Assembly (NCBI RefSeq): GCF_011045215.1
Contig: NZ_CP049201.1
Direction: 5' to 3' (one strand)
Origin: Escherichia coli
GTDB lineage: Bacteria; Pseudomonadota; Gammaproteobacteria; Enterobacterales; Enterobacteriaceae
DNA length: 64,000 bases
Part shown: positions 310-62,560 of the stretch, in pieces
Position numbering within the stretch: the stretch's first letter is position 1
Layout: each line of letters starts with the position of its first letter
Notes under the pieces: model-generated
What the model was told of the DNA's origin: nothing
The model's database searches: none
Seen by the model: only the letters and a program-made list of their open reading frames with translations
Made by a program: the position numbers and the translations under genes

Positions 310-312
310 ATG

Positions 313-2738: not shown

Positions 2739-2744
2739 AGAAAG

Positions 2745-4726: not shown

Positions 4727-4748
4727 CCCTCTTGCATTGTGTAATTCA

Positions 4749-4783
4749 TTTGCTTGCCGGAAGCAAAATAACCGGCAAGCAAA
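4749..4783. terminator. Bidirectional terminator between ribA and acnA
   Basis: Inverted repeat TTGCTTGCCGG..CCGGCAAGCAA between convergent genes. Confidence 0.6.
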
Positions 4784-4789
4784 TACTTG

Positions 4790-29794: not shown

Positions 29795-29828
29795 CAAAAC
29801 CCCGGATGATCACCGGGGTTGATTTTAT
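29795..29828. terminator. Bidirectional terminator between ORF6N gene and tail fibre assembly gene
   Basis: AACCCCGG-ATGATCA-CCGGGGTT hairpin flanked by A/T runs. Confidence 0.5.
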
Positions 29829-30403
29829 CGAGGATGATTGCCGCTAATCGTCATCTCTCTGATTGAGAGTAAATCATCCAAGTTATTCAGCTCTTGCTTC
29901 ATCTCCCGCTGGCGGCGATAAATCTCGTCATTGCGATCGACCTGCGCCTGAACCATTGCAGTAAGCAGCTCATCCAGTTGTTGCATTGACAACTTTACCT
30001 GCTGATTTTCCGCATCGCGCCATACCATGGTTTTCCGTGCCGTGACTGATTTTGCTGATATCACCACCGGGTAAAGACGGGCCATCGAATCCGGTCCCCC
30101 GTTCCAGCTATGACCGTTCCATTCAAAAATGAATGGCTGCGCCTCCTGCTCTGTACGCCATGCTTCAATTTCCCGGCGTTTGGCTGCTTTTGCTGCTTCC
30201 AGCATCTCTGGCGTGACGGTGAACGGCGTTATTTCTCCCCACTTGCCGCTTTGCAGTTCCTGCCAGACTCGCTGCCCTGTCTCTGCTGTATCCGTGGCAG
30301 TTGCCGTATACGGAACCGGTTCATCCATGCCATCAAACAACACCCCGCAGTCAATCGCGCCATTTTCAAGATAACGCGCATTTTCGATGCGTTTTATTTC
30401 CAT
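29825..30403 (-). CDS. Putative tail fibre assembly chaperone (Tfa-like)
   Basis: ORF track 29825..30436, start at MEIKRIENARYLENG (ATG 30403); immediately downstream of a fibre gene. Confidence 0.55.
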   Translation of the reverse strand: MEIKRIENARYLENGAIDCGVLFDGMDEPVPYTATATDTAETGQRVWQELQSGKWGEITPFTVTPEMLEAAKAAKRREIEAWRTEQEAQPFIFEWNGHSWNGGPDSMARLYPVVISAKSVTARKTMVWRDAENQQVKLSMQQLDELLTAMVQAQVDRNDEIYRRQREMKQELNNLDDLLSIREMTISGNHPR

Positions 30404-30410
30404 AAAACAC

Positions 30411-31835
30411 CTACGCAATACGTATGAACAAACCAATCATGACACTGGCTGACCCGGCAGACCCGAGTTCATCGCCTGACAGTGCACGATATGACCCCGG
30501 CATACCACCACCAGAACCCCGCACATATACGGAAACGCTGCCGTTATATCCAACCCCGCTACCGGTCGTGCCGTAACACATAAATTCAACCGCACTCAGG
30601 CGTGACCCCGGATAACTGTAACCGCGCTTTATCCGGCGGTCGGTGTCTGCGTCTCCCTTACCGTTATAAGCCGCCAGTACAAGACTGCCTGCACCGTACC
30701 AGCCGTCCGTGGTACCGGGAGCAATACCGGACAGAAGAGAGATAATGTCCTGTGAGGTAATCTTCAGATTTTCCCAGCCAGTCAGATAACCATTACCTGT
30801 TGTCCAGTAGCGGCTGTAATAAACATCGCCATTGATACCGTAGAAAATAATGGCCTTTGGTGTATATCGCGGTTCCGGTGGATTATTGCGTGCCTCAACC
30901 CACCGGATGCTGACCACCCCGTTAAACAACACACCTCCGGATATGATTTTACTGCCACCCTCAACAAAATATTCACCCGGCGTCGCATTCCTTACCCATG
31001 CCAGAAAATCATCCTCTGTGTTAAAACGGATGCGTTCTGCGGGCAGAAAAATATGCCCAAAACCAAATGCGCCAGGTGTCGCCAGACGGCCTTCAGTCCG
31101 GTCGCGAATGTCGCTCTGTGGCGTCATTGTGGCTGCGCTTTTCAGTCCAAGATTATCACGGGATTCCTGCTGAGCCTCTTCACCTTCATCAGCCAGCTCT
31201 GATAAACGATTCGCCGTTTTCAGTGTCGCAGATAACGCGGTGTCAATATCCTCCCTGACATGCTCTGCATCAGATGCAGCCTGTTTAGCAGCTTCAGCGT
31301 CCTTTTTTACCTCCTCGGCGGCATTCTCAACCTGTGAGACCAGATTTTCGGCCTGTTGTTTACCCTCCGCAACCGCGTCGGCGTTCTGCTGAACACCTTC
31401 CGCCAGTTTTTTTACCTCTTCTTTTTCCCGAGCGGCAGCGTCTGCATGTTGCCCTGCCTGTCGTTCGCTTTCTGTTGCAGTTTCCGCGCTCTGCTGCGCC
31501 TGCGCCACCAGTTCTTCGAACCGCTTAACAACATCCGGCTTCAGGTCGCCTTCATCGAGGGCAGTCAGAAAGTCGTTCAGCGTGCCAGGCTTTGAGTCGT
31601 CGTAAACCGAAATATCACCGACACAGTATTCCCTTTCAATACACGACCGAAGATAAACGTCATATTTTCCGGTCTGAGCTTCAAAAGCATATTCTCCTGC
31701 CGGACCTGTCACCACTGTCGCCACCGTTCTCATGACCACTGCGGATGTATTCTGTCTGGCTTTCAGAATAATATGGTATCCGGACATGGGGAGTCCCGCG
31801 CCATCCGTCAGCACACCCGAAATTAATACAGACAT
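30411..31835 (-). CDS. Side tail fibre (Stf-like): prophage tail-fibre N-terminal domain, Ala/Glu-rich coiled region, distinct C-terminal domain
   Basis: N-terminus ISGVLTDGAGLPMSGYHIILKARQNTS...SVYDDSKPGTLNDFL resembles recalled StfR/StfE N-domain. Confidence 0.7.
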   Translation of the reverse strand: MSVLISGVLTDGAGLPMSGYHIILKARQNTSAVVMRTVATVVTGPAGEYAFEAQTGKYDVYLRSCIEREYCVGDISVYDDSKPGTLNDFLTALDEGDLKPDVVKRFEELVAQAQQSAETATESERQAGQHADAAAREKEEVKKLAEGVQQNADAVAEGKQQAENLVSQVENAAEEVKKDAEAAKQAASDAEHVREDIDTALSATLKTANRLSELADEGEEAQQESRDNLGLKSAATMTPQSDIRDRTEGRLATPGAFGFGHIFLPAERIRFNTEDDFLAWVRNATPGEYFVEGGSKIISGGVLFNGVVSIRWVEARNNPPEPRYTPKAIIFYGINGDVYYSRYWTTGNGYLTGWENLKITSQDIISLLSGIAPGTTDGWYGAGSLVLAAYNGKGDADTDRRIKRGYSYPGSRLSAVEFMCYGTTGSGVGYNGSVSVYVRGSGGGMPGSYRALSGDELGSAGSASVMIGLFIRIA

Positions 31836-35746: not shown

Positions 35747-36265
35747 TCACACCCGGATAATTTTTTTCAGATCCGACAGCACATTCACACCGTTAATGCG
35801 CCGTACAAACTGCTCCGGAATAATGCAGATGGTCTCCAGTCCATCGACAGCCTGGCGGTAATAACTCAGTGACATTTCCACCGACACCGCTGCTTCTGCC
35901 TGCGAGGTGGACGGACGCGCATCCGGCGTGATACTGGTGATCATCCCCTGAAGGGTTTCCACCAGACCGCTTGTTGCACCGCCCACCTGATACGCCTGAC
36001 GGACAACAATTTCTGGCGAATAAATCCCTGCCTGCAATCCCAGCAGAGTCAGTATGGCCACGTCGTATCCGTAAATTTTAAACGAGCAGGTCAGCGCCTC
36101 CATACCGTCATCCACTGACACCGGCGCATCCATCGCACCGGTTTTGATGTCCACCTTCGTGATATTGATGGCCGGAGGCGTGTACTCATGTGCCCCCTGA
36201 AGGCGAATACCACCCGGCAGAAAGAGCGCCCATGCCCGTAGCAGTTTTTTTTCGCACGACATCAT
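35747..36265 (-). CDS. Tail tube protein (P2 FII-like)
   Basis: 172-aa ORF directly after sheath, ATGA overlap. Confidence 0.75.
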   Translation of the reverse strand: MMSCEKKLLRAWALFLPGGIRLQGAHEYTPPAINITKVDIKTGAMDAPVSVDDGMEALTCSFKIYGYDVAILTLLGLQAGIYSPEIVVRQAYQVGGATSGLVETLQGMITSITPDARPSTSQAEAAVSVEMSLSYYRQAVDGLETICIIPEQFVRRINGVNVLSDLKKIIRV

Positions 36266-37737
36266 ACTGTCAGTTCCTCCTGTGCCAGTTTATTGTTGAT
36301 CATTGTACGCAGCGTCAGGCGTTCCAGTGGTGACTTCGGCCCGAAGTCATAGTCGATATACAACTGCCCGGCAGCCAGGGTTTCTGCTGTATTCAGTTCG
36401 TCGTTCAGCCATGCGCTACCACCGTGGATCGCGCCCAGATTTTTAAGCTGGCGCATGTAGGCATTAATACTGCCGAGAATATCGTCCGCAACATCCCGAT
36501 CAATCGGACGGTCAACATAAGGCAACATGGATTCCTGAACACTGTCTTCAATCACATCAGCCGTACGGCGCACGGACTCAAAGCGCAACTGGCTATGAGA
36601 TGTGCACAGGCGGTTACCCCAGTGTTTAAAACCGTCATGACGAATAATGGTGGAGATGTTTTCCATGTTCAGCAGATTTGCCGTGCAGTTCTGCTCCCCG
36701 AGAATAAATGTATCCACCTGCTCAAGACCGGTGATATTCATCACGTCCTGATTTGATTTGGACCACCACCATCCTTTTTCATAATCAATACGGGCACGCA
36801 GTCCGGCAGCGCGTGCCGAATACGGGCGAAACACTGTTTGTCCGCTGTCATCCGTCACCGACACGCGCGGACGAAGCAGTTCAACACGCCCACCAAATAA
36901 CGTCCGGCGCTGAACCACATCCTGCGGCGTTACCATTGAGGGGGAGTCAATATAGGCAACAGCCCGCAGTTTCGCGGCATACGTTTCCAGCGCCTTTGCC
37001 ACACCATCATCCTCGCTGTAGCCAGTGGCGACAAGAATACGCGGCTGGTAGCCTGTTACGCCTTTGCTCTTCGTCAGAGCTTCCATGGCCTTAATCACTG
37101 CGGCACGCTGTTCTGCCTCCTTCGCTTTCGGTTTGCTTTCCGCACGTACCACAATCACCAGCGCACCGGTCTGGTCAAAAATATCACGCAGGGCAGGATA
37201 CAGCGTTCCGGAAGCCCCCAGCTTTCCGGCCTGCGTGAGTGCCCCCGCCACCACCACCGGCGTATTAACCGGAAATGCCTCATCCTCACCGCCGGACAAC
37301 GTCAGGGTAAAGGGAGATACCACTCCTTCCCCGACAGAATCTGCATTCAGCATGCTGGTATCGGCCATCACCGGTGAATCCTCCAGCGCATTCACAACCT
37401 CCTTCACACGTGACGCAGTGGCATTCGTCTCACCATGTTCATCTGTGCCCAGTGTGATCGTCAGGGTGTTTCCCTCCAGAGCCGCGGTTGTCTCTGCGTT
37501 TTGCTGCGTGCTTCCGTTGGCCACAACTGAAATCTCATTGCCGGACCGCCCGGCTTTTTTCGCTGTAAAATCCAGCGCGGAACTCAACAACCATGATCCG
37601 GCAGTACCGGAAGCACACACACCGCCGGAGGCGTCCGGCGCTGTCCCCACGAGGCCAATCACTGCCGTGGAGACGGTCTGCACGGCCACCGTGCCTGTCG
37701 TCAGTTCAATGGTTTCCACACCATGTAGTCCGGACAT
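36262..37737 (-). CDS. Tail sheath protein (P2 FI-like) with enlarged central region
   Basis: ORF track 36262..37824; start taken at MSGLHGVETIELTTGTVAVQTVSTAVIGLVGTAPDA (ATG 37737, RBS GGGAGAAA); C-terminus LYIDYDF..PLERLTLR resembles recalled P2 sheath. Confidence 0.8.
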   Translation of the reverse strand: MSGLHGVETIELTTGTVAVQTVSTAVIGLVGTAPDASGGVCASGTAGSWLLSSALDFTAKKAGRSGNEISVVANGSTQQNAETTAALEGNTLTITLGTDEHGETNATASRVKEVVNALEDSPVMADTSMLNADSVGEGVVSPFTLTLSGGEDEAFPVNTPVVVAGALTQAGKLGASGTLYPALRDIFDQTGALVIVVRAESKPKAKEAEQRAAVIKAMEALTKSKGVTGYQPRILVATGYSEDDGVAKALETYAAKLRAVAYIDSPSMVTPQDVVQRRTLFGGRVELLRPRVSVTDDSGQTVFRPYSARAAGLRARIDYEKGWWWSKSNQDVMNITGLEQVDTFILGEQNCTANLLNMENISTIIRHDGFKHWGNRLCTSHSQLRFESVRRTADVIEDSVQESMLPYVDRPIDRDVADDILGSINAYMRQLKNLGAIHGGSAWLNDELNTAETLAAGQLYIDYDFGPKSPLERLTLRTMINNKLAQEELTV

Positions 37738-37792
37738 ACATTTCTCCCATAAAAAAACCGCCCCTGAGGCGGTCAGTTGATTTACTTCTTTT

Positions 37793-43075: not shown

Positions 43076-43310
43076 TGCCGTAATTGTGGCGGGTCCTTCC
43101 TGGAAAATGAAACACCGGGGGTGGCCATACGCGCAATTCTTAACTGTTTATGAAAATTTTTCGGGAAAAGTCAGATCCGTTCTTCTTCTCTGTAACTCAT
43201 TGTTTAATGGTAAAATCATCAAAAAAAGAAAGGATCTGGCAGTGGTCATTCTGGGCCCAAAATGACGTTATCAGATCCTTTCTCAGTTTTGTTCAATAAT
43301 TGCGCGGTTG

Positions 43311-43895
43311 TCACTCAGCTCTCTGTTGCCGTAACTTCTCCGGCACGTTTCCGGTTGTTTCCATCAGATAATCTTCCAGAATGCGGGGCAGGTTATCGGC
43401 AGTTTTAGCGCACGCATTACAGGCGCGTGCTGTTTCCCTCCTCAGGCCATCGATCATTGCCGGAGTCATCGCGGGAAACTGCCTTTGCATCGTAAGGGGC
43501 AAGCTATTCATGATGGTTGAAATCTGTTGCGCCAGTTTAGACAGTGCATACATACAAAAGCCGGTATCTATAACCTCTCCTGTCTCCCTGGCGTTCTTCA
43601 GTTCCTGCCCGTCAGCCTGTGCTTTAGTGAGACGGTATCGTTCGTACTCTGTTGTGCCTGGCTGTAAATCTGATTCACCAACGGCACGTAAATCATCAAG
43701 CTCACTGCGGAGTTTTTCTTTTTCGATCTCCTTCTCCCTCTGTACATACCATTCGATCACCTGTGAAGAGTCGAAAGTCACCTCCATACCTTTTCCGCCA
43801 CCAGATACATGGGGGAGCCCTTGCATCTGCCAACGTTCAATTGTGCGCGGATCAACACCGAAAATCTCTGCCAGTCTCTTTTTGTTAACATTCAT
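43311..43895 (-). CDS. Terminase small subunit, lambda Nu1-like (element copy)
   Basis: N-terminus MNVNKKRLAEIFGVDPRTIERWQMQGLPHVSGGGKGMEV resembles recalled lambda Nu1 winged HTH; C-terminal half similar to the prophage TerS at 62051..62560. Confidence 0.8.
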   Translation of the reverse strand: MNVNKKRLAEIFGVDPRTIERWQMQGLPHVSGGGKGMEVTFDSSQVIEWYVQREKEIEKEKLRSELDDLRAVGESDLQPGTTEYERYRLTKAQADGQELKNARETGEVIDTGFCMYALSKLAQQISTIMNSLPLTMQRQFPAMTPAMIDGLRRETARACNACAKTADNLPRILEDYLMETTGNVPEKLRQQRAE

Positions 43896-44039
43896 TTATC
43901 AAATCCTCATCAAAAACCACCTCCGACATGAAACGCCTGAAAAACGGGATTTTCCGGCGTTATGGTGTCGTATGTTTATTATAGTTAATTTAAATAAAAA
44001 CATAATGTTACATGCAAGAAGTACCGACATGCTTTTTCC

Positions 44040-44115
44040 CTGAAAAATTTTCATAAATAGTGAAAATCTGCGCGTCTGCCGCCCCGCGGTGTTTCTGATT
44101 CTGGAAAGGACCCGT
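44040..44115. other. Lambda-like cos site of the element
   Basis: GAAAAATTTTCATAAATAG ... GCGCGTCTGCCGCCCCGCGG ... GGAAAGGACCCG; reverse complement resembles the lambda cos junction (CGCTATTTATGAAAATTTTCC, GGGCGGCGACCT, GGGTCCTTTCC); about 185 bp upstream of terS. Confidence 0.6.
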
Positions 44116-44194
44116 GAAAATTGGGGCGATCACCACCGTTCCGGATACAAAAAAAATCGCGAGACCTTGCCAGCCTCGCGAACGTTCATTTCAG

Positions 44195-44620
44195 TTACTT
44201 AACAGACAGCAACAGCTTTTCATCTTCGGTCAGTCCGGCGTTGCCATCACCGGCTGCTGGCCCAACACATTTCGGGCTGTGCTTTTCCATGTACGCTTCA
44301 AACAGAAAAGCCGTTTTCTTTTCCTGCATCATTGCCTGGGCATCCACGGCAGCCAGTAACGTTTGTGCATAGGTTACTGTCATTACTTCAGAACCACACT
44401 CAATCAGCTTACTGGTGAACTCAGGGTATTTTGATGCCAGCGGTAACGCCTTGATACCCTCTATGCGCTGTTTATCACTCTCAGCCTTTGCAGTAAGCAC
44501 CGTTCGGGCTTCTGTCAGTGATGCGCCATTATTTGCGAGATTTTCCGCAAGCGTCGGGTATTTCTGCGCCTCAGGCAGTGCCATGATCAATGCTCTGGTT
44601 GAATTTGCTTTCTCAGTCAT
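44195..44620 (-). CDS. Hypothetical head-module protein (possible scaffold)
   Basis: 141-aa ORF between decoration-like gene and cos; no recognised motif. Confidence 0.45.
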   Translation of the reverse strand: MTEKANSTRALIMALPEAQKYPTLAENLANNGASLTEARTVLTAKAESDKQRIEGIKALPLASKYPEFTSKLIECGSEVMTVTYAQTLLAAVDAQAMMQEKKTAFLFEAYMEKHSPKCVGPAAGDGNAGLTEDEKLLLSVK

Positions 44621-44634
44621 AAATCACCACAAAA

Positions 44635-44964
44635 TTATTGCCCTAAAGGCTGCACGGAAATACCGGAACCAACAAAAGACGACACTTTTTTCTCGAACGT
44701 GTCCGCTGTATCAGGCCAGTTAATTTCATCGATATTAAAAACCCCGCACTTATAAACCTGTGCGCGGTTTTTTGTGGCCGTGTTAATGTCCGATATGGTC
44801 AGATACACCGCCTTACCGGGTGTACCGTCCCACTCAACCATCAGGCCCGCGCCGTTCTGCATCAGCGGAGTTCTCGCTTTAATTTCTCCGGCACTGGCAA
44901 AACAGGCCAGCGTGCTGACCAGTTCCTGCGTGCCGGAAAGGAATTGCGTGTAAGGTGTTGGCAT
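44635..44964 (-). CDS. Head decoration protein homologue (lambda gpD-like, element copy)
   Basis: RTPLM..VEWDGTPGKAV...YKCGVF..INWPD...FVGSGISV parallels the gpD pattern TPLM..VAWDG...YKSGTF...WP..AF.GTAIS. Confidence 0.65.
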   Translation of the reverse strand: MPTPYTQFLSGTQELVSTLACFASAGEIKARTPLMQNGAGLMVEWDGTPGKAVYLTISDINTATKNRAQVYKCGVFNIDEINWPDTADTFEKKVSSFVGSGISVQPLGQ

Positions 44965-44974
44965 ACGATCCCCT

Positions 44975-46030
44975 TTATTTCACTTCGACGGTAACAAAGC
45001 GACCAATATCCACGGGTACTGGCTGCGGGGCGCTGTGCGTCTGCACGTATTCAATCGCCGGATCGCCCGGTACGATATAATTTTTCGGGTAGTACATCCC
45101 CTCAGAAAATCCCTCGCGTGCCGCGTCCTGATCCATGATGGCACCATAAGCAACAAGGCCTTTATTTTCGGTATTGCCGAAAACCATCATGTTTTGTTTC
45201 AGGAAATATTGCTGCTGCCCGTTTTCGTCGTCATAACGACCGGAATAAACCACGATCGCCACATCACCGAGATACCCCTTGAAGCTGACAACGCCGCCCA
45301 AATCTTTTAGCGCAAGTTCAAGTGACGAGTTTGAACCGCGACGCGTGTCCATTAGTTCGCGGAATCGACGGAACGAGCGCAAAATACGCCAGGCTTCGCC
45401 ACCCATGACGATAATATTTACCGTACCTTCGGAAAAATCAGCGTAAGCCTCAATGTCGCTTATCGGATCAAACGTTTCGGCATCCTGTTTTGACCATTCT
45501 TTCCCGCCAGCCTGCGTAATATGATTGGTTTCGGGTAATCCCCAGTCAATTTCATAACGCTCAATGCCTTCGCCCTCAATAACGTTACGGCCTGTTGTGA
45601 TGGCATTGACCGCCAGCCATTCAACACGCGCTTTGATGGCAGCAAGCTGTTTTTTCTGGCTGTCGTGAACCATTTTTACGCGGCGTAGTGCCGGGGAAGA
45701 CTGACCATTGCCGATCTGTTCTCCAGGCATGCGCATGATTGTTTTGGTGGGATCAATAACGTGTTTGGGCTTCATATAACCCGGCGTGAACGTGTTCGTT
45801 GTGAAACCTTTGTCACGCATAACCTGGCTGCCTGACATTGGAGAACAAAACGGACTCATGACCACGTTTTCAATATCCAGCGTATCAAGTGCAATATCTC
45901 TGGTGCTGAAAGTAGCGACGTTCGGAAAGAACAACGTAGTAAAGAGTGGATTAAATTTAAATTCCGGCACATCTTCGCGCCCGATATTTTTCAGTAGCGT
46001 TGGTGTGCTTACCAGTTGCGGCGCTGTCAT
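44975..46030 (-). CDS. Major capsid protein homologue (lambda gpE-like, element copy)
   Basis: 351-aa ORF; TPGYMKPKH, NHITQAGGKEWSKQDAETFDP, KELMDTRRGSNSSLELALKDLGGVVSFKGY align with the prophage gpE at 55439..56467. Confidence 0.8.
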   Translation of the reverse strand: MTAPQLVSTPTLLKNIGREDVPEFKFNPLFTTLFFPNVATFSTRDIALDTLDIENVVMSPFCSPMSGSQVMRDKGFTTNTFTPGYMKPKHVIDPTKTIMRMPGEQIGNGQSSPALRRVKMVHDSQKKQLAAIKARVEWLAVNAITTGRNVIEGEGIERYEIDWGLPETNHITQAGGKEWSKQDAETFDPISDIEAYADFSEGTVNIIVMGGEAWRILRSFRRFRELMDTRRGSNSSLELALKDLGGVVSFKGYLGDVAIVVYSGRYDDENGQQQYFLKQNMMVFGNTENKGLVAYGAIMDQDAAREGFSEGMYYPKNYIVPGDPAIEYVQTHSAPQPVPVDIGRFVTVEVK

Positions 46031-46266
46031 TACTCACCCCCATGAGGCTGATTCATACCAAGCGCAGCGCGTAAATGGCTGCGTACCATCCAGCCGACTG
46101 ACGGCTTCACCAGGCACAACGGATCAAGGCCGATTTTTTTTCCTGCCTCTGCGTTCTCCTCAAAGCGCGCATTAAGTGCGGCGATAATATCGGGGCTGAT
46201 GTACACGGATACACCGCCCGGCTTCTGTGTTCCCATAAATGAGATTCCTCTTTGACTAAAAAACAA
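46030..46266 (-). CDS. Hypothetical protein upstream of capsid homologue
   Basis: 78-aa ORF, start uncertain; no recognised motif. Confidence 0.35.
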   Translation of the reverse strand: MFFSQRGISFMGTQKPGGVSVYISPDIIAALNARFEENAEAGKKIGLDPLCLVKPSVGWMVRSHLRAALGMNQPHGGE

Positions 46267-46457
46267 ACATAACGAAAAGTCATGTCATGATTTTAATTAT
46301 CGTTGCACTTTTTGCAATATAATTGACTATTGTTGCGAATAATGAAATCATTATGTCGTGGTTTTAATCCTTGTACCACAGAGTTGTTTAGCATTAATCA
46401 CGTTAGCGGCGTGAAATCCCCCGGAACCTCATCCCGGGGGATTTTTTTGCGCACAAA

Positions 46458-46482
46458 AAAGCCGGGAAAAATCCCGGCTTCT
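46458..46482 (-). terminator. Terminator after element ssb
   Basis: AGCCGGGA..TCCCGGCT hairpin followed by TTTTTTGTG on the minus strand, just after ssb stop. Confidence 0.5.
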
Positions 46483-46494
46483 GTCACTCGTTGC

Positions 46495-46917
46495 TTAAAA
46501 CGGTATTTCATCCCCGTACGGATCATCATTTCCCGCCTGTTGTTTTGCTCTGCTCAGTGCATCAGTAGCCTGCCCCTGTTGGCCTTTTTTGCCGCCCGGT
46601 CGCGCCGTTCTGGCACTGATTACACTGTCTGCGATAACCTGCCAGCTCTGCCGCGTTTCGCCGTTCTGGCCTGTCCACTGGCTTACCTGCATGTTACCCG
46701 CCACGCTCACCAGTTCGCCTTTGCGGTGTTTTGCCAGTGCGTCGGCCTGTCTGCCAAACGCCAGGACGGATAACCACATCGTCGCCGTTCCGTCATCTGC
46801 CTGGCTGCACGGCAGGGGAACCGCCATACTCGCCATCGCCATTTGTGTTCCCTTGCTGGTGGTCTTTAACTGCGGGTCAGCCACCAGCCGCCCGTAAGCT
46901 GCTATCTGTGCTGTCAT
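46495..46917 (-). CDS. Single-stranded DNA-binding protein (SSB-like) with acidic C-terminal tip
   Basis: 140-aa ORF; C-terminus ...NDDPYGDEIPF resembles the SSB tail ...DFDDDIPF. Confidence 0.7.
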   Translation of the reverse strand: MTAQIAAYGRLVADPQLKTTSKGTQMAMASMAVPLPCSQADDGTATMWLSVLAFGRQADALAKHRKGELVSVAGNMQVSQWTGQNGETRQSWQVIADSVISARTARPGGKKGQQGQATDALSRAKQQAGNDDPYGDEIPF

Positions 46918-47165
46918 GCTGTCTGCTCTCCGGTTTTAACGTTGATGGTTGTCACCTGTTCCGCTTCGGCAATCTCCCGCTCTGTCAGCGTGGCAAAGTT
47001 TGCCGCCGCTGTGGTCATGAATGCGCTTATCAGTTCGGGATGTGCTTTTGCGTATCCTTCTCCGGCATGGCGGTCTATTGTTCTGATTGCCACCTTTAAG
47101 GCGTGCTCTGTCATGTCTAACGCTTTATATTTTGGCGCTGTCTTATCTCTGGTTTTTTTGGTCAT
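46914..47165 (-). CDS. Hypothetical protein
   Basis: 83-aa ORF, ATGA overlap with ssb start. Confidence 0.45.
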   Translation of the reverse strand: MTKKTRDKTAPKYKALDMTEHALKVAIRTIDRHAGEGYAKAHPELISAFMTTAAANFATLTEREIAEAEQVTTINVKTGEQTA

Positions 47166-47370
47166 TTCTCACTATTCCCCACTTTTTCGCCTCACTTTTT
47201 AAGCTCCCAACATGATTTCCAACCTTGTTTTTTTGTGATTCTAATATGTTGTTTTTCAATGTGTTTTTTATTCCTCACTTTTGAGCCTATATACAGGTTG
47301 AAAAGTGAGGGGCGCGGTTGCTTTTTGTTCAGTTTCTGCTATCCCCTCACTTTTGTGCCTCACTTTTTAC
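47165..47370. repeat. Iteron array with AT-rich core (candidate replication origin of the element)
   Basis: CTCACTTTT at 47191, 47274, 47346, 47361 and inverted AAAAGTGAGG at 47301, flanking an AT-rich stretch (47225-47275), directly downstream of the helicase gene. Confidence 0.55.
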
Positions 47371-48782
47371 AGTGGGCGCACATCATCACCGTCAATAGTG
47401 ATAACGCCGTCTCTTTCCAGCTTGTACAGCCAGCGCCGAAAGTTTTTCATCTCATACCCCAGCTTTTTCATATCATCACGCAATAACGGGATAGTGCATT
47501 TATCGCCGCGCTGTGTGCGTGAACGGATACAGCCCCATAGCGCGGCGTGATTCTCCGTCTTGTTTCCGGCCTCCTCAATGCGCTCCAGTTCAACAGGTGG
47601 GCGCGGCTTATCCACTACCACCAGCGACGTGATTAACTCCTTGTCAGCGTCGATAAAAAGCTCCACCACGCGTAAATCGTATGCGGCCTCTTTCAGTTCC
47701 TCTGCGTCCTTCATTTTGGTGCAGGAGATAACCAGGGCTTCACTGTCTGCACCTTCCCGGCGAATACGGTATTCAGCGTCCAGAGATGCACGAAATGCAC
47801 TGGAACCACGCGCCCCCTTTGTTTCATCCTTGCCGGAATGGTGAACCACCAGTACCGTGGCCCCTGTGCGTCGTTTCAGTTCGTCACATCCACGGATAAA
47901 CGCCCCCATATCCCGCGCGTCATTTTCATCATTACCGCCAAAACACCGCGCCAGCGTATCCAGAATAATCATGCGTACCGGTTTACCCGTTTCCCTTTCA
48001 ACCTGGCGGGAAGCGATGACCATTTCATCAATATCAAACTGTGCTGCCGGAAAAATCGGGCGGTTTACCAGGTACAGATTTTTCACCCGTTCATCATTAA
48101 CGATTTCCCATGCTTTGATACGACGAGGGACACCAATGCCACCTTCACCGACGACATACATCACCGAACCATGCGCCACCCTGCGGCCTCCCCAGTGGCG
48201 ACCCGTGGCAACATGACACGCCCAGGAACACGCGAGGAATGATTTATAGGAACCGCTCGCGCCGTATGTGCTGCACAACGAATTAGCCGGAATCACGCCC
48301 TTAACGACATAATCAAGCTGTGTGTCGTACCCTGCAGATCCAATACTCATTGGTAGCGTGGTTTTTCGCTGGTCGTTTTTTTCTTCCTCCGGTATCTCTC
48401 CGGACCGTCTTTTCTGGCGCTCTCGTTCCAGATATTCGCGCCACCCCTCCCGCTTCTGGCTGTGCATTCCCTCAGGGTAATAATTCGCATCCCGTACACC
48501 TGCCGCTGCCAGCTTTTGCCCGATGGCATTAATATTTGACGGCTTGATGTGGCCTGCCTTGTACAGCCGGACACAATAGCGACCATCGTCGATAATTTTC
48601 AGGTCAGCCAGTTCGTCAAGATGGCTGTCTCCAAGCCATACAGGCGGAACATTGTCGCCAGCAAGTCGCCCGTCCTGCTCCTGCCATTGTTTCGCGTGCG
48701 CCCAGGCATCACTACCCGCAAAAATAATGACTTCGGTCATTTTGTCGTGCGGCTGTTTTTTTAAGTTCGGTGCCAGTTTCAT
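47367..48782 (-). CDS. Replication protein, RepA/DnaB-like P-loop helicase
   Basis: 471-aa ORF with Walker A GASGSYKS and RecA-like core; C-terminal winged-helix-like region. Confidence 0.7.
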   Translation of the reverse strand: MKLAPNLKKQPHDKMTEVIIFAGSDAWAHAKQWQEQDGRLAGDNVPPVWLGDSHLDELADLKIIDDGRYCVRLYKAGHIKPSNINAIGQKLAAAGVRDANYYPEGMHSQKREGWREYLERERQKRRSGEIPEEEKNDQRKTTLPMSIGSAGYDTQLDYVVKGVIPANSLCSTYGASGSYKSFLACSWACHVATGRHWGGRRVAHGSVMYVVGEGGIGVPRRIKAWEIVNDERVKNLYLVNRPIFPAAQFDIDEMVIASRQVERETGKPVRMIILDTLARCFGGNDENDARDMGAFIRGCDELKRRTGATVLVVHHSGKDETKGARGSSAFRASLDAEYRIRREGADSEALVISCTKMKDAEELKEAAYDLRVVELFIDADKELITSLVVVDKPRPPVELERIEEAGNKTENHAALWGCIRSRTQRGDKCTIPLLRDDMKKLGYEMKNFRRWLYKLERDGVITIDGDDVRPL

Positions 48783-49078
48783 TTTTTACCCCTGAATGCG
48801 TTAATCATGTTTTTCATTTTCTGAATGTTCGCCCGTGCCTTTGCGTTGCTGGTGGGCTGTTTGCATGGCGTGGCCTGTATCAGTGAAAAATCACGCCGGA
48901 ACTGATAAACAGGCATCACGCAGTCATAGCCGTACCCATCACGGCGGTAAGTAACGCACCGTCCCGCCACGCTTTTAATCGTTACCGTGCCGCCGTAGTT
49001 ATCCCGGAAAATATCGCCGGGGCGGATTTCAGGCCGAGCGGGGCCGCTGGCAGTAAAGCCAGAAATTTTCTGTTTCAT
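48779..49078 (-). CDS. Hypothetical protein
   Basis: 99-aa ORF, ATGA overlap with helicase start. Confidence 0.4.
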   Translation of the reverse strand: MKQKISGFTASGPARPEIRPGDIFRDNYGGTVTIKSVAGRCVTYRRDGYGYDCVMPVYQFRRDFSLIQATPCKQPTSNAKARANIQKMKNMINAFRGKK

Positions 49079-49286
49079 GGTTTTTATTCCTCTGCGCGGG
49101 TCTTGTTGTGTATTTCCATAACCGCGTTTAATTCATCAATAACCGGGGTTAACAGAGTGCTGAAAGCAGAAAATAAATCCCCCCCCCTGTTCGGCATGAA
49201 CTTCGGTTAATTTAATTAATACCGCTTTCATTTCCAGTGCCCGGTTTAATGCATTCTCAGAATGAATAAGAACATCGAAAGGGATT

Positions 49287-49520
49287 TTATCCATGGCTTA
49301 CATCCTCCGGGAATTTTCTTCTGTAACGCGCCTCTGCAACATATTCCGCATAGTCCGACGCAATATTGAGAATCTCCACACCCTCTGACCTGTAGCCACT
49401 GGTACTGATAAGAAAAAATGCGGCTTTCATCATGTCGGCAACGCATAACAACGCATCGCCTGTATGTTCCGGTGCGCCATCAAATTCCTGTTTCAGGGCA
49501 TTAAAACGATCATCACGCAT
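49287..49520 (-). CDS. Hypothetical protein (may be the 3' part of one gene frameshifted at a C9 tract)
   Basis: 77-aa ORF; begins inside poly-C/G tract 49523-49531. Confidence 0.3.
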   Translation of the reverse strand: MRDDRFNALKQEFDGAPEHTGDALLCVADMMKAAFFLISTSGYRSEGVEILNIASDYAEYVAEARYRRKFPEDVSHG

Positions 49521-49753
49521 AACCCCCCCCCATTTTCACAATCAGTAATCAGGATGGCTTTAGCCTCATTCAGTGCCATATCAGCACTAAATTGCATAAC
49601 AGCCAGTGAGTGAGGAACGAAATCCCCGGCATATTCTGTTTCGCTGGTGGCGTGCTTATGTGCCCTGTCCGCGATAACAGAAATATCAATCAGCGCGTGC
49701 ATCAGCGTTTTGATGGCTTCGGCGGCTGCGTCCTGACGGGTGTTATTGCACAT
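49493..49753 (-). CDS. Hypothetical protein (may be the 5' part of one gene frameshifted at a C9 tract)
   Basis: 86-aa ORF ending just after poly-C/G tract. Confidence 0.3.
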   Translation of the reverse strand: MCNNTRQDAAAEAIKTLMHALIDISVIADRAHKHATSETEYAGDFVPHSLAVMQFSADMALNEAKAILITDCENGGGLCVMIVLMP

Positions 49754-49949
49754 GGCGCACCTCCTGACGAATACGGGCGGCGAATACCATCACGCAGCCA
49801 TCAGGAGATTGCTGACGCGCTTCCTGTTCGTTGGTGGCCTCAATGGTAATCACGCGCGGTTGTGCCGTGCTCAGGGCGATAAAACGCCAGATGTATTTAT
49901 TCAGGTTGTGCGAGTCCCGCCCTTGCGGGTGTGTGGTATGATTTAACAT
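49743..49949 (-). CDS. Hypothetical small protein, divergent from the RHH gene
   Basis: Start taken at MLNHTTHPQ (ATG 49949, RBS GAGGTA); long upstream extension in ORF track rejected. Confidence 0.4.
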   Translation of the reverse strand: MLNHTTHPQGRDSHNLNKYIWRFIALSTAQPRVITIEATNEQEARQQSPDGCVMVFAARIRQEVRHVQ

Positions 49950-50043
49950 AGCTACCTCGATAATCTTGCTATCGTTGGTGGTTAGACGCCCTGCATGTGT
50001 ACCACCACTGCGGGGCGTTGCGTTTTTTGATGTGCACGTGTTA

Positions 50044-50088
50044 AGGTGTACACCTAACGAACCAAAACATAACGCCATAGGTGTACAC
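50044..50088. promoter_or_regulatory. Two palindromic operator-like sites GTGTACAC in a divergent promoter region
   Basis: AGGTGTACAC at 50044-50053 and 50079-50088, second abutting the RHH start codon. Confidence 0.5.
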
Positions 50089-50283
50089 ATGTCAACAGTT
50101 ATTAAGCGCGATAAAAAACAAAAAGGCACAGGAAAGGCCCCACCATTCCATATGCGTATAGTCCCTGAATTGAAGGAGCAGTTTGATAACGAAGCCAGTA
50201 ACGATGGAGTAAGTCTTGCCAACTGGCTTAAAGAGTTAGGGCGCAAAGAACTGCTACGGCGCGGAATTGAACCAAAGGGATAA
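50089..50283 (+). CDS. Ribbon-helix-helix (Arc/CopG-like) DNA-binding protein
   Basis: ORF track 49966..50283; start taken at MSTVIKRDKKQKG (ATG 50089); APPFHMRIVPELKEQFDNEASNDGVSLANWLKELGRK fits the Arc-type RHH pattern. Confidence 0.6.
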   Translation: MSTVIKRDKKQKGTGKAPPFHMRIVPELKEQFDNEASNDGVSLANWLKELGRKELLRRGIEPKG

Positions 50284-50340
50284 CTATCACTAATGTCGCA
50301 ACCAGAGGAGTTGCGACTCCGAAGATTACATAGGAAATTA

Positions 50341-50823
50341 ATGATTATGGGATTCGTCATTTTCATTGCGATCGTAATTTTATCCATTTACGTTCTTACC
50401 AAATTATTTATTTCAGAAAATTCACACGACAAAATTAGAGCCGAGGCATCCAGAAGAATTGCACAAGAAGAGGCCGAACGGGCTAAGTTGTATGAAGAGA
50501 GAAAGGAATCATCTGATAATCCTGTTAATAAACAAAAACGAATAACAACACACGAAGATCATTTTTATATGGATATTCATGGTGGTCACAAATATATATG
50601 TGTTGATGCTAAGTTAGTTTTTGAATATGCAAATTTAAAACACAACTATTTTCTTCACGCCTCTCACTATTTCCCTGAGTTAGAGTATGTTTATGGAAAA
50701 AACGAACATGGGAAAATAGTTAGAGTAGATTTGTACGATAAAAAAATTCAAGCTATTAACCCCGATACTGGCGAAAAAATACCTGGTGTGAGACGTTATC
50801 TACGACAGCACAAGATAAAATAG
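50341..50823 (+). CDS. AT-rich membrane-anchored protein of unknown function
   Basis: ORF track 50293..50823; start taken at MIMGFVIFIAIVILSIYVL (ATG 50341, RBS AGGAAA); single N-terminal TM helix; markedly lower GC than neighbours. Confidence 0.5.
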   Translation: MIMGFVIFIAIVILSIYVLTKLFISENSHDKIRAEASRRIAQEEAERAKLYEERKESSDNPVNKQKRITTHEDHFYMDIHGGHKYICVDAKLVFEYANLKHNYFLHASHYFPELEYVYGKNEHGKIVRVDLYDKKIQAINPDTGEKIPGVRRYLRQHKIK

Positions 50824-51238
50824 CCCACCGGAATTTTTTTCCGGTTACGCTTTGCCCACCAGCCGCAAATGTGGCATTGTTGGCTATGCTCATGCGTTGG
50901 GGATAACGCGCAATTAGTGTTGAAGGGCCACCGTAGCGGGTGGCCTTTGTTTTGCCTGTTATCCGGCAATTGTGGCGCTTCGCCACACGGTTGATATAAT
51001 CCTCCTGCACAGATTCATTTTTTGCGCAGCAGGTTAATTGTTCGCAAGGGCGCTCCGGCAACTGGGCGCTTTTTGTTTTTACCCACCAGCACAATAAAAA
51101 TCTTCATTTTCCATTTTTGCAAAATTTCATGCTTTCCGGACGACTGGCCATATGTCATTTTTTAGCAGAAGATTTTGCCTTGCTGGTGGGTAGCTTCCCG
51201 GTTAACACGATGTACCGTATAATCAGCACCGCACGCGG

Positions 51239-51820
51239 TTACTGAATACGCTCACCAAAGTAAAACTCAGGCTGATATTCACGTATCAGCCTTTTTTCTT
51301 CTTCCTCCAGCTCACGCTTTTTGCGCTTACATGCCTGTAGTTCCCTCCCCTTCTCGCTGGCACTTATCTGGTATTGCTCTTTGCGACGGGAAAAATCCTG
51401 TAATGCGCCCCACGGGATACCATAAGCCCCCGTTTTTCTGATACCCGGTATCACATTTCTGAATACCCAGTTACTGAAACGATGGGCGAACGTGCCAGGA
51501 GTAGCAGCTTTTCGACTTCTGGCAATCAGCTTGTAAAAACCAGATTCAGAAACGACGCTATGATTTGGATTTCCGCGAATACCGTAAGTTAAAGTTACGG
51601 TATTACTTTCATCATCATCCAGAGCTTGCAACGCCATGCGTGAATTAGTCAGTTCCAGCGCAGCGCAGACATCCTTTGCAACAAACCACGGATCGCCGTT
51701 CAGATACACCACGCGAACGTTCACACTATCAAAGCGCAGAACGACCAGATCACGAATATCACAGAATTTTTTCACTGGACGTGCGTCACCCTTGCCAGTC
51801 ACGGCAATATTTTTATTCAT
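51239..51820 (-). CDS. Bro-N domain protein (antirepressor-like)
   Basis: DIRDLVVLRFDSVNVRVVYLNGDPWFVAKDVCAALEL...GFYKLI..S....A..F..WV fits Bro-N. Confidence 0.7.
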   Translation of the reverse strand: MNKNIAVTGKGDARPVKKFCDIRDLVVLRFDSVNVRVVYLNGDPWFVAKDVCAALELTNSRMALQALDDDESNTVTLTYGIRGNPNHSVVSESGFYKLIARSRKAATPGTFAHRFSNWVFRNVIPGIRKTGAYGIPWGALQDFSRRKEQYQISASEKGRELQACKRKKRELEEEEKRLIREYQPEFYFGERIQ

Positions 51821-51870
51821 CGCTTTTTACCTCACATACAAAAAACCCCGCATTGCGCGGGGTATATCAA

Positions 51871-52080
51871 TCATTGACGATATTCATTAGCTTGTTTTCG
51901 TTGTCTTTCCAGCCACGATGCAACATCATCACGATGCCATGCGTTGCGTCGCCCAATCTTAAAGGGGCGTGGAAATTTATTTTTTTCATCATTCATGAAA
52001 GCGTAAAATGCACTCATTGCACCGTAGCGAAGCTCTGCCATCACGTCTTTGGTAAATAGAATATTGCCGTTAGTGCTCAT
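51871..52080 (-). CDS. AlpA-family regulator / excisionase-like protein
   Basis: 69-aa ORF immediately downstream of integrase, HTH-like core. Confidence 0.65.
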   Translation of the reverse strand: MSTNGNILFTKDVMAELRYGAMSAFYAFMNDEKNKFPRPFKIGRRNAWHRDDVASWLERQRKQANEYRQ

Positions 52081-52086
52081 ATTGCC

Positions 52087-53319
52087 TCACATATTCACTA
52101 CTTTTAGCCCCTGATGACCACCAGAACGACGGATAATTCCCTTTCTGGCATCATCAACAAAATCACCAATCCATTGCATCATGATCTTACGTTGCTCAAA
52201 ATATTTTGAGCGATTATAAATATCACGAATAGCATCGCCGCTTTTATGGGCTAATGCTGCCTCAATAACATCTGGGTTAAACCCTTCTTCGTTGAGTAAC
52301 GTACTCCACATAGCCCGGAATCCGTGGGCAGTTGCAATACCATAAAATTGTCCATCTTTGAAACACTTATGACGCAACACGCTTGATATAGCTTTCCCCG
52401 GATTCTTTGGAGAAAAAAATATATAGCTACCACATTTTATTTTATTCATTTCATTTAAAATATCCACGGCTTGCCGTGAAAGCGGAACTACGTGTTCACG
52501 TCCACACTTCATTCTTTCAGGGGGAATTGTCCAGATACAATTTTCTAAATCAATTTCCTCCCATTTTGCCTCCCTTGCTTCACATGGTCGTACCATAGTG
52601 AAAATCTGGAACAAAAGAGAGCATCTTATAGAGATATTACTTGTAGTATCCCACCAGTTCAAAAATTCTGATAACAGTTCAACTGGTAATGCCTTTAATG
52701 GGGTATGTTTTTTTGTTGCAAATGCATTTCTTATTGTTGATAGCGGGTTATTTTTAATTACTCCAGAGTTAACACAGTAATTCATTATTTCATTAATTTT
52801 TGAAATAATTTTATCCAATACAGAATTACGATCAGAAAATTGATTAAGCAATGGTATGACCACAGGCGCGGTCATATCATGTATGTACACATTTCCAAAT
52901 ACAGGGATTATATGTCTGTTCAATAACTCTTCTATTGTCTGTAAAGTCGACAGTCGCAAATCACCTTTTTTCTTAAAATTAAACCATTCAATTGCAATAG
53001 CACCAAACGTCTGTAAGTGCTTTCTTTTAGCCTCGAGTCGTTTTTCTGCCCGGTATGATAACGGATCTATATCCCGTGCCAACAATCTGCGCAGATTATC
53101 GCGTTCTTCTCTGGCTTCAACCAGCGTGAAATCGGGGTATCGCCCTATAGTGTATGTTTGCCGCTTCTTCGTAAAAGGTTGTACATAACGAAAACGCCAC
53201 GATTTACTACCGGCTTTTGACACATAAAGCAAAAGCCCAAACCCATCATATAGAGCGTAATCTTTCTCTCGTGGCCTGGCGCTTTTTACCTCTGATGCAG
53301 TAAGAGGCTTCACCGACAT
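52087..53319 (-). CDS. Tyrosine recombinase, P4-type integrase
   Basis: ORF track 52087..53418; start taken at MSVKPLTASEVKSARPREKDYALYDGFGLLLYVSKAGSKSWRFRY (ATG 53319); C-terminal catalytic region with HGFR and Y. Confidence 0.85.
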   Translation of the reverse strand: MSVKPLTASEVKSARPREKDYALYDGFGLLLYVSKAGSKSWRFRYVQPFTKKRQTYTIGRYPDFTLVEAREERDNLRRLLARDIDPLSYRAEKRLEAKRKHLQTFGAIAIEWFNFKKKGDLRLSTLQTIEELLNRHIIPVFGNVYIHDMTAPVVIPLLNQFSDRNSVLDKIISKINEIMNYCVNSGVIKNNPLSTIRNAFATKKHTPLKALPVELLSEFLNWWDTTSNISIRCSLLFQIFTMVRPCEAREAKWEEIDLENCIWTIPPERMKCGREHVVPLSRQAVDILNEMNKIKCGSYIFFSPKNPGKAISSVLRHKCFKDGQFYGIATAHGFRAMWSTLLNEEGFNPDVIEAALAHKSGDAIRDIYNRSKYFEQRKIMMQWIGDFVDDARKGIIRRSGGHQGLKVVNM

Positions 53320-53492
53320 ACAAGCACTCCAATACAAATTTTTTCTAGTCCATGCGCTGGTTCCTTTTGCCAGAATACTGGCGATAAAAAAGCGAAAAAC
53401 AAGGAACAATGCACACAATGAAAAAACCGCAACTTATTGAATAAGAAGAAAAACAAAAAGAAACGGTAACGAAAGATAATGATTGCATAGTC

Positions 53493-56467: not shown

Positions 56468-56537
56468 AATTGACTTTCCTTTAAAAACACAAACGAACCG
56501 CATCACGACCCGTTTTTTTCAGTTAATCACTTCACCA

Positions 56538-62079: not shown

Positions 62080-62560
62080 CGAGTAACTCCGGCAATTTAT
62101 CCCCTGTCCGCGCACACTGATTCGCGCCTTTTGCGATAAGGGTTTTCAGATAATCGATATGACGCGGGGTTAAATCCGGGAACTGTCGCTGCATGGATAA
62201 AGGAATGGAATCAAGCGTACTGGACAATGCCATCGCCAGTTTGCTGAGAGCGAAAACGCAGAACCCAGAATCAATGAGCTTGCCTTCGGTTACCTGATTT
62301 TTTAATTGCTGTGCTATTGCCTGTTCTTCAGTCAATTTCCATCTGGCGATAAGTAATTTTTCTTCGTAATCGCTATTTCCATCGTCATCAGTATCGCTTC
62401 TTCCTTTGCGTTTAAGGTATGAAATATAAAAATATCGCCAGGCATCAATATCGTATTCACCACGCTTTCGATTTTTTGGCGCTCCCGGGTGCTTCTGAAG
62501 ATCCCGCAACCAGCGTTCAGTTATACCAAGATGCTCGGCTACCTCCGCCTGCGTTGCCAT
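62051..62560 (-). CDS. Terminase small subunit (Nu1-like, prophage copy)
   Basis: 169-aa ORF upstream of terL; C-terminal half similar to the element TerS; N-terminal domain distinct. Confidence 0.8.
   Translation of the reverse strand: MATQAEVAEHLGITERWLRDLQKHPGAPKNRKRGEYDIDAWRYFYISYLKRKGRSDTDDDGNSDYEEKLLIARWKLTEEQAIAQQLKNQVTEGKLIDSGFCVFALSKLAMALSSTLDSIPLSMQRQFPDLTPRHIDYLKTLIAKGANQCARTGDKLPELLDEYIRTTAE

What the first reader, a model, noticed from the sequence alone, without database searches (positions are those of the whole stretch)
36262..37737. Tail sheath is about 100 residues longer than P2 sheath because of a central insertion
The N-terminal and C-terminal parts resemble the P2 sheath, but the central region (about residues 40-190, Gly/Ser/Thr-rich) has no counterpart I recognise. 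Extra sheath domains are surface-exposed in contracted tails and can be decoration or adhesion domains.
Basis: inference. Interest (0 to 1): 0.35.

Follow-up and report, generated by a model that had tools for sequence, protein, structure and literature searches.

The report
P2-like tail sheath with extra outer domain
An E. coli prophage tail sheath carries one extra surface domain of about 114 residues compared with phage P2; extra sheath domains are ordinary and this one is widespread, but it sits at an unusual point in the chain and has relatives in flagellar proteins.

Summary
The minus-strand ORF at 36262-37737 encodes a 491-aa contractile tail sheath. P2 FI (396 aa) aligns to residues 5-36 and 146-483. 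The extra segment is residues 37-150, so it lies near the N-terminus, not in the centre, and 151-190 do have a P2 counterpart.

The segment is predicted to fold on its own as a compact strand-rich domain with helices (pLDDT 93). Its best structural matches are the protruding domains of other tail sheaths. It gives weak, sub-threshold hits to Pfam PF17481 (sheath domain II).

It is present in hundreds of 484-501-aa sheaths of Enterobacterales prophages and in cultured phages such as Hafnia yong2 and Citrobacter Chris1.

Two points are less routine:
- The domain is inserted before the Gp18_domIII_N unit. In T4, Mu and phiC2 the outer domain comes after that unit.
- A profile of the domain finds strong relatives, often in tandem, in flagellins, FlgE, FlgK, another sheath family and phage virion proteins.

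The domain is the most variable part of the protein but is under purifying selection (dN/dS about 0.2, against 0.04 in the core). The most likely role is surface decoration, not contraction. Interest is low to moderate.

The parts
36262..37737 (-). Tail sheath CDS, 491 aa plus stop codon
37630..37737 (-). Residues 1-36: N-terminal arm and first strand (27-32) of the subtilisin-like domain
   Evidence: 53% identical to P2 FI residues 6-37. The family's mean pairwise identity is 84% here. Residues 1-20 have low confidence in the monomer model, as expected for an arm that orders only in the assembled sheath.
37288..37629 (-). Residues 37-150: the inserted outer domain, strand-rich with helices
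37144..37305 (-). Residues 145-198: the rest of the Gp18_domIII_N (PF22671) unit, which resumes after the insert
   Evidence: Pfam match to profile positions 8-57 of 58, E 5.8e-5, 23.7 bits against a cut-off of 27. In P2 the same profile matches 26-86 without a break.
36613..37095 (-). Residues 215-375: Phage_sheath_1 subtilisin-like domain
   Evidence: PF04984, E 7.6e-15, 55.6 bits.
36301..36597 (-). Residues 381-479: sheath C-terminal domain
   Evidence: PF17482, E 4e-16, 59.4 bits.
37743..37748 (-). Shine-Dalgarno GGGAGA, 5 nt upstream of the ATG
   Evidence: Read directly from the sequence.
37751..37774 (-). Terminator-like hairpin and T-run between the tail-fibre-assembly stop codon (37793) and the sheath start
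   Evidence: Terminator scan: 8-pair stem, 5 of them G-C, followed by a run of T. Sequence. Function not tested.

Best explanation
This is the contractile tail sheath of a temperate myovirus prophage in an E. coli chromosome. The tail genes are in P2 order.

Shown:
- The contraction machinery is P2/pyocin-like: the N-terminal arm, the subtilisin-like domain and the C-terminal domain.
- One extra autonomous domain of about 114 residues (37-150) is spliced in between the first strand of the subtilisin-like domain and the conserved '(E)DExFPLN' segment.
- Its closest structural matches are the protruding outer domains of other sheaths, and there are weak sequence hits to the same domain (gp18 'domain II', called 'domain III' in Mu).
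- In this family the domain enters the chain about 50-60 residues earlier than in T4, Mu or phiC2.

Inferred:
- The domain projects from the outer face of the sheath and takes no part in the arm exchange that drives contraction.
- It rides on the subunit as a rigid decoration, giving the tail a ridged, variable surface.
- Its role is probably structural or surface-related: extra lateral contacts, or weak interaction with the surroundings or the host surface.
- It was most likely gained by insertion of a mobile domain into a one-domain P2-like sheath. The same domain family occurs in tandem in flagellin, hook and hook-junction proteins and in phage virion proteins.
For: Core identity:
- Pfam sheath domains above cut-off.
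- P2 FI 37% identical over 146-483 and 53% over 5-36.
- Neighbouring genes are baseplate J and I, fibre, fibre-assembly protein, sheath, tube, E, tape measure, U and D.

The insert is a real domain:
- pLDDT 92.8 when modelled alone and 81-90 within the full model.

It resembles known sheath outer domains:
- PF17481 matches 13 of 43 family members, best E 5.5e-4. In this protein the match spans profile positions 13-97 of 98. Hafnia yong2 gives E 2.2e-5.
- PHROG 279 'tail sheath' matches residues 51-154 to profile positions 100-213.

Insertion site differs (Pfam order):
- T4, Mu and phiC2: PF22671, then PF17481, then PF04984, then PF17482.
- This protein and yong2: insert, then PF22671, then PF04984, then PF17482.

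Widespread and conserved:
- 677 cluster representatives at E <= 1e-5, with full-length members 484-501 aa across Enterobacterales.
- Cultured phages yong2, Chris1, AcaML1 and Valp1 carry it.

Selection:
- The insert has 49% mean pairwise identity, against 75-84% elsewhere.
- dN/dS is 0.14-0.23 in the insert and 0.03-0.05 in the core.

Mobile family:
- The insert profile finds 622 representatives, with E values down to 1.8e-41.
- They include flagellins, FlgE, FlgK, a DUF3383 sheath and phrog_8757 virion proteins, with up to 22 matched stretches per protein.

Literature:
- Outer sheath domains are structurally divergent and point outward (PMC11915804).
- Added sheath domains are common and lie away from the tube (PMC9230969).
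Against: - No assembled structure was modelled, so the outward position of the domain is inferred from homology and chain topology.
- Similarity to PF17481 is below Pfam's gathering score: 13.4 bits against 31.4 for this protein.
- hhalign against single domain II sequences of Mu, phiC2 and T4 aligned only the short 'A..G..GN.i.V' motif, without significance.
- A profile search of PDB sequences found nothing.
- The direction of change is not resolved: gain in this lineage or loss in P2.
- Nothing here tests function.
- The insertion site was compared with only three canonical sheaths and a few PHROG profiles.
Confidence: 0.78

Rival explanations
1. The domain is an adhesin. It binds a host surface polymer (O-antigen, capsule) or environmental glycans and helps adsorption or retention, as proposed for Ig-like domains on phage surfaces.
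For: It is the most variable region of the protein and is probably surface-exposed. Relatives sit in the exposed variable regions of flagellin, FlgE and FlgK. PMC9230969 suggests that added sheath domains may serve adsorption (abstract).
Against: No match to any lectin, carbohydrate-binding or Ig family above noise. dN/dS of about 0.2 shows no overall positive selection. The prophage has dedicated tail fibres next to the sheath gene.
Confidence: 0.15
2. The domain is ancestral at this position and was lost in the P2/pyocin lineage. It is not an insertion gained by this lineage.
For: Most sheath families have an outer domain of this fold class. The flanking motifs (APDA ... FPLN) are retained on both sides in P2, which would also fit a clean deletion.
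Against: Canonical sheaths carry the outer domain at a different point in the chain. The insert is closer in sequence to repeats in flagellar and virion proteins (E down to 1e-41) than to canonical sheath domain II (E about 1e-4). This points to separate acquisition. No rooted phylogeny was made.
Confidence: 0.2
3. The extra length is an artefact: a wrong start codon, a frameshift or fusion, or low-complexity filler with no structure.
For: The segment is rich in Gly, Ser, Thr and Ala. A longer TTG ORF also exists.
Against: Hundreds of homologues have the same length and architecture. Four E. coli alleles align without gaps and show dN/dS well below 1 in the insert. The fold prediction is confident. 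The ATG start has a ribosome-binding site.
Confidence: 0.01

Closest known systems
P2 gpFI and the R2 pyocin sheath PA0622 (one-domain, 'type 1' sheaths)
   Different: P2 and the pyocin sheath have no outer domain. This protein has 114 extra residues between the first strand and the FPLN segment. All modelled Peduovirinae sheaths were one-domain (PMC9230969).
Sheaths with a canonical PF17481 'domain II' outer domain: Mu gpL/gp39, phiC2 and phiCD508 gp55, DSY3957 (3HXL), T4 gp18
   Different: In those proteins the domain follows the PF22671 unit; here it precedes it. There is no BLASTP similarity to Mu gpL. The Pfam gathering score is not reached.
Sheaths of Hafnia phage yong2 and Citrobacter phage Chris1, and the 484-501-aa 'phage tail sheath family protein' of Enterobacterales prophages
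   Same: Same family and same architecture. 62% identity over the full length to yong2. The insert is 39-43% identical. E. coli prophage alleles are 89-91% identical.
   Different: Only allelic divergence, concentrated in the insert. yong2 has a different tail gene order, with the sheath ahead of the baseplate genes.
Repeat domains in the variable regions of flagellin, FlgE and FlgK, and in phage virion proteins (phrog_8757)
   Same: Same domain family by profile (E 1e-14 to 1e-41). 23-30% identity with a shared motif running from '..FTA..G..GN.I.V' to 'L.GG.D'. All are exposed parts of subunits that build helical assemblies.
   Different: Those proteins carry 2 to 22 tandem copies in unrelated scaffolds; the sheath has one copy. 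Pfam has no family for these repeats.

Membership tests
Contractile tail sheath (Pfam Phage_sheath_1 + Phage_sheath_1C) | PF04984 subtilisin-like domain above the gathering score | tested here: met
   55.6 bits against a cut-off of 31.4, residues 215-375.
Contractile tail sheath (Pfam Phage_sheath_1 + Phage_sheath_1C) | PF17482 C-terminal domain above the gathering score | tested here: met
   59.4 bits against a cut-off of 26.9, residues 381-479.
Contractile tail sheath (Pfam Phage_sheath_1 + Phage_sheath_1C) | Gene lies next to a tail tube gene within a contractile-tail module | tested here: met
   The tube gene is at 35747-36265, followed by E, tape measure, U and D. Baseplate and fibre genes lie upstream.
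Contractile tail sheath (Pfam Phage_sheath_1 + Phage_sheath_1C) | N- and C-terminal arms exchange strands between subunits and the sheath contracts | not testable with these tools
   Only sequence conservation of the N-arm is available: 53% identity to P2 and 84% within the family.
P2-like one-domain ('type 1') sheath, Peduoviridae | Main domain only, 321-410 aa, no added domain (PMC9230969) | tested here: not met
   491 aa, with an autonomous 114-residue extra domain.
Two-domain ('type 2') sheath, Evseev et al. 2022 | Main domain plus one added domain rich in beta strands, 426-713 aa, located away from the tube | tested here: met
   Length and domain count. The added domain has beta strands and short helices. 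Its position relative to the tube is inferred, not modelled.
Pfam PF17481 Phage_sheath_domII | Score at or above the gathering score of 31.4 bits | tested here: not met
   13.4 bits, E 0.11, for this protein. 13 of 43 family members match at E <= 10, best E 5.5e-4.
Pfam PF17481 Phage_sheath_domII | Fold shared with the outer domains of solved sheaths | tested here: met
Pfam PF17481 Phage_sheath_domII | Canonical position in the chain: after the Gp18_domIII_N unit (PF22671) and before PF04984 | tested here: not met
   In T4, Mu and phiC2 the domain comes after PF22671. Here and in yong2 it comes before it.

The most novel reading that the evidence does not exclude
The insert may belong to an uncurated, horizontally mobile 'filament-surface' domain family. 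The family is shared by phage tail sheaths of at least two sheath families, other phage virion proteins and the exposed regions of flagellar axial proteins (flagellin, FlgE, FlgK). Its presence at a non-canonical site in a P2-like core would record a separate capture of that module. This would imply exchange of surface modules between phage tails and flagella.
Probability: 0.4. Interest if true: 0.45.

Novelty: new variant of a known kind. Interest (0 to 1): 0.27.

Why it matters
For this gene the result is mainly a better annotation. It is a two-domain sheath on a P2-like core, and the 114-residue domain is currently unlabelled in Pfam and RefSeq.

Two wider points follow:
- Sheath outer domains can be placed at different loops of the same core. 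This protein, the canonical sheaths and phiRSP each use a different site. That is useful for anyone engineering pyocin- or P2-type particles with displayed domains.
- One domain family decorates both phage tails and flagellar filaments, hooks and junctions. This hints at a shared pool of surface modules for helical assemblies.

Neither point changes how contraction is understood.

Tried and rejected
- hhalign of the insert profile against single domain II sequences of Mu, phiC2 and T4. Only a 17-22-residue motif aligned and the probabilities were negligible. Inconclusive, because the targets were single sequences.
- Profile search of the insert against PDB sequences at E <= 10. No hits, so the link to solved sheaths rests on fold comparison.
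- Foldseek against afdb50 was not available. BFVD was used instead and returned mostly uncharacterised phage proteins.
- BLASTP against Mu gpL. No significant similarity, so the idea that this is a Mu-type sheath of similar length was rejected.
- P0004, a 462-aa E. coli homologue, was checked as a possible natural deletion of the insert. Its 29-residue deletion is in the core, not the insert.
- Pfam 'Flagellin_IN' was considered as the identity of the domain. It matched only 2 of 43 members, best E 0.11, and was rejected as unsupported.
- The phiRSP sheath (476 aa) was considered as a homologue of the insertion. Its extra segment sits at a third site, after PRILIAPGF, and does not align with this one.

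Full report
**What is at the coordinates**

The window is E. coli chromosome. Bases 1-6000 match the acnA-pyrF region at 99.9% identity. Phage DNA occupies about 29.8-62.5 kb.

The ORF at 36262-37737 on the minus strand encodes 491 aa. A longer TTG-initiated ORF reaches 37824, but it overlaps the upstream tail-fibre-assembly gene. The ATG at 37737 has a GGGAGA ribosome-binding site 5 nt upstream. All full-length homologues start at the same MSGLHGVETIEL.

The protein is a contractile tail sheath:
- Pfam PF04984 scores 55.6 bits and PF17482 59.4 bits, both above cut-off.
- The R2 pyocin sheath PA0622 (3j9q) matches at E 3.7e-51 over query 148-487.

The neighbouring genes follow P2 order: baseplate J and I, fibre, fibre-assembly protein, sheath, tube, E, tape measure, U and D. 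A related E. coli prophage (87.5% nucleotide identity) is annotated the same way.

**The observation**

BLASTP against P2 FI (396 aa) gives two separate matches:
- query 5-36 to P2 6-37, 53% identity;
- query 146-483 to P2 33-384, 37% identity, E 8e-65.

The multiple alignment shows one clean block that is absent from P2, from the P2-like phage vB_EcoM-613R3 and from Ralstonia phiRSP. The insertion is residues 37-150, window 37288-37629.

G+S+T is 36% in the insert and 22% elsewhere. Two details need correcting. The insertion follows the N-terminal arm and first strand directly, so it is not central. Residues 151-190 do have a P2 counterpart.

**What the insert is**

Modelled alone with a 43-sequence alignment, the insert gives a confident compact domain of strands and short helices (pLDDT 92.8, pTM 0.86). 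It is equally confident inside the full-length model.

- then T4 gp18, Klebsiella phage KP1 and phiKZ gp29.

At sequence level, Pfam PF17481 (Phage_sheath_domII) matches 13 of 43 family members below threshold. The best is E 5.5e-4. In this protein the match spans almost the whole profile. Hafnia phage yong2 gives E 2.2e-5. PHROG 279 'tail sheath' aligns residues 51-154 to its positions 100-213.

hhalign against single domain II sequences recovered only the 'A..G..GN.i.V' motif. A PDB sequence-profile search found nothing.

My reading is that the insert is a divergent relative of the familiar protruding sheath domain. The support is fold similarity and weak sequence signals, not a family-level match.

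**How common it is**

A search of the large protein collection was capped at 8000 candidates. It returned 677 cluster representatives at E <= 1e-5. The best 120 share 57% or more identity with the query over the aligned part, and the full-length ones are 484-501 aa. A few are longer, probably from miscalled starts. They come from Escherichia, Salmonella, Klebsiella, Enterobacter, Citrobacter, Pantoea, Erwinia, Serratia, Providencia and others. The sources name them only 'phage tail sheath family protein' or similar.

Twenty-five complete E. coli genomes carry the region at 80% coverage or more. Among cultured phages, the insert itself is found in the sheaths of Citrobacter phage Chris1, Hafnia phage yong2, Acidithiobacillus phage AcaML1 and Vibrio phage Valp1. 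PHROG 23 'tail sheath' covers residues 2-489 in one stretch.

Evseev et al. 2022 classify sheaths into three types (PMC9230969):
- one-domain 'type 1', 321-410 aa, which includes all modelled Peduovirinae;
- two-domain 'type 2', 426-713 aa;
- multi-domain 'type 3'.

The Mu structure paper notes that the outward domain is the structurally divergent part of sheaths (PMC11915804). By these criteria this protein is a type 2 sheath built on a P2-like core.

**What is less routine: the insertion site**

Pfam coordinates give the following domain orders.

| Sheath | Domain order along the chain |
|---|---|
| T4 gp18 | PF22671 (24-82), PF17481 (200-344, with gp18 domain I at 96-188 ahead of it), PF04984, PF17482 |
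| Mu gpL | PF22671-like (50-87), PF17481 (99-203), PF04984, PF17482 |
| phiC2 | PF22671 (35-87), PF17481 (96-181), PF04984, PF17482 |
| P2 FI | PF22671 (26-86), PF04984, PF17482 |
| This protein | insert (37-150), PF22671 (145-198, profile positions 8-57), PF04984, PF17482 |
| Hafnia yong2 | insert, PF22671 (145-197), PF04984, PF17482 |

In this family the outer domain splits the first strand (residues 27-32) from the rest of the PF22671 unit. In the canonical sheaths it follows that unit.

Ralstonia phiRSP uses a third site, after PRILIAPGF. Both loops follow strands of what I take, from general knowledge of the subtilisin-like fold, to be a parallel sheet. An outward-facing position is therefore plausible for this insert too, but this is inference; I could not inspect the coordinates. 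Only three canonical sheaths and a few PHROG profiles were compared, so the rarity of this site is not established.

**What is less routine: the wider domain family**

A profile of the insert was searched against 1.84 billion representative proteins. It found 622 hits at E <= 1e-3, 81 at E <= 1e-10 and 6 at E <= 1e-30.

Only about 14 of the best 150 contain the P2-like sheath core. Most of the rest carry 2 to 22 matched stretches, usually in tandem. Pfam and PHROG scans of a sample identify:
- flagellins, with the domain between Flagellin_N and Flagellin_C (P0133, P0137, P0144, P0181);
- hook proteins FlgE (P0160, P0197);
- hook-junction proteins FlgK (P0164, P0171);
- a DUF3383-type sheath (P0138, two copies at 97-315);
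- phage 'virion structural proteins' of phrog_8757 (P0121, P0126);
- many proteins with no Pfam match at all.

A direct BLASTP of the insert against P0126 gives 32% identity over 99 residues and hits several repeats. An alignment of ten representatives shows a shared motif running from 'FTA..G..GN.I.V' through 'I.V.LATD..G.ITTTA' to 'G.G.V....L.GG.D'.

The sequence evidence that this is one domain family is strong. Whether it has been described elsewhere I could not determine. Two literature searches found nothing on it.

**Selection**

Within the family, mean pairwise identity is 49% in the insert, 84% in the N-arm, 75% in the core and 84% in the C-terminal domain.

I compared four E. coli alleles: the window and three RefSeq prophages, which align without gaps. 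Nei-Gojobori dN/dS is 0.14-0.23 in the insert and 0.03-0.05 in the core. The domain is therefore maintained by selection but is five to seven times more tolerant of change. That fits an exposed, non-catalytic surface.

**Likely mechanism**

- Shown: a P2/pyocin-like core with conserved arms; an autonomous extra domain of the sheath outer-domain fold class; conservation with relaxed constraint.
- Inferred: the domain projects from the outer face, moves as a rigid passenger when subunits rotate during contraction, and gives the tail a variable outer surface.
- Possible roles: extra lateral contacts that stiffen the sheath, or weak surface interactions. The first is suggested by analogy with flagellin outer domains, which affect filament properties (abstract of PMC8931119). 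Nothing here separates these roles.

Adhesion is a live rival at about 0.15. An artefact is excluded. The direction of change (gain here or loss in P2) is unresolved. Gain is favoured because the site is non-canonical and the nearest sequence relatives lie outside the canonical sheath domain II.

**Verdict**

The protein is a variant of a known kind, a two-domain sheath with a non-canonical insertion point and a domain from a broad, uncurated family. Interest is low to moderate.

Noticed in passing
window 43300-53420 (between the head module at 53.4-62.1 kb and the tail module at 29.8-42.4 kb): About 10 kb sits between a lambda-like head module and the P2-order tail module. It carries an integrase (52087-53418), an AAA_25 protein (47367-48782), a second capsid-E gene (44975-46030) and, at about 43578-44087, sequence 73% identical to the phage 21 small-terminase (Nu1) gene. 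The head module comprises TerL at 60163-62115, portal, S49 protease and capsid E at 55439-56506. In a related E. coli prophage the head and tail modules are contiguous. This may be a satellite-like island inside the prophage, or two elements in tandem.
   Followed up: partly
window 37751-37774, minus strand: A terminator-like hairpin (8-pair stem followed by a run of T) lies in the 55-nt gap between the tail-fibre-assembly gene and the sheath gene. P2 has an operon boundary at the same place, between G and FI (from my own knowledge of P2). No sigma-70-like promoter was found nearby.
   Followed up: partly
window 29825-31835, minus strand: A second tail fibre gene (474 aa, phrog_2636) and an adjacent 203-aa ORF at 29825-30436, not scanned, which may be its assembly gene, follow gpD at the end of the tail module. 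Part of this region matches phage phiP27 tail-fibre genes at 84% nucleotide identity. The related E. coli prophage ends at gpD.
   Followed up: no
L003 (Ralstonia phage phiRSP sheath, residues about 246-340): This 476-aa P2-like sheath has a Gly/Thr/Ala-rich extra segment of about 90 residues. It sits at a third site, after PRILIAPGF, and does not align with the insert studied here.
   Followed up: no
P0121, P0123, P0126, P0135, P0143 (representative proteins); L008 8001-10142: These are long proteins of 700-5977 aa with 4 to 22 stretches matching the sheath-insert domain and no Pfam family. P0126 lies on a 31-kb metagenome contig near a Phage_tube_2 gene. phrog_8757 labels its relatives 'virion structural protein'.
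   Followed up: partly
P0004 (E. coli, 462 aa): This is a close homologue that lacks 29 residues of the sheath core (query 220-248). It is probably a defective prophage allele. The outer domain is intact.
   Followed up: yes
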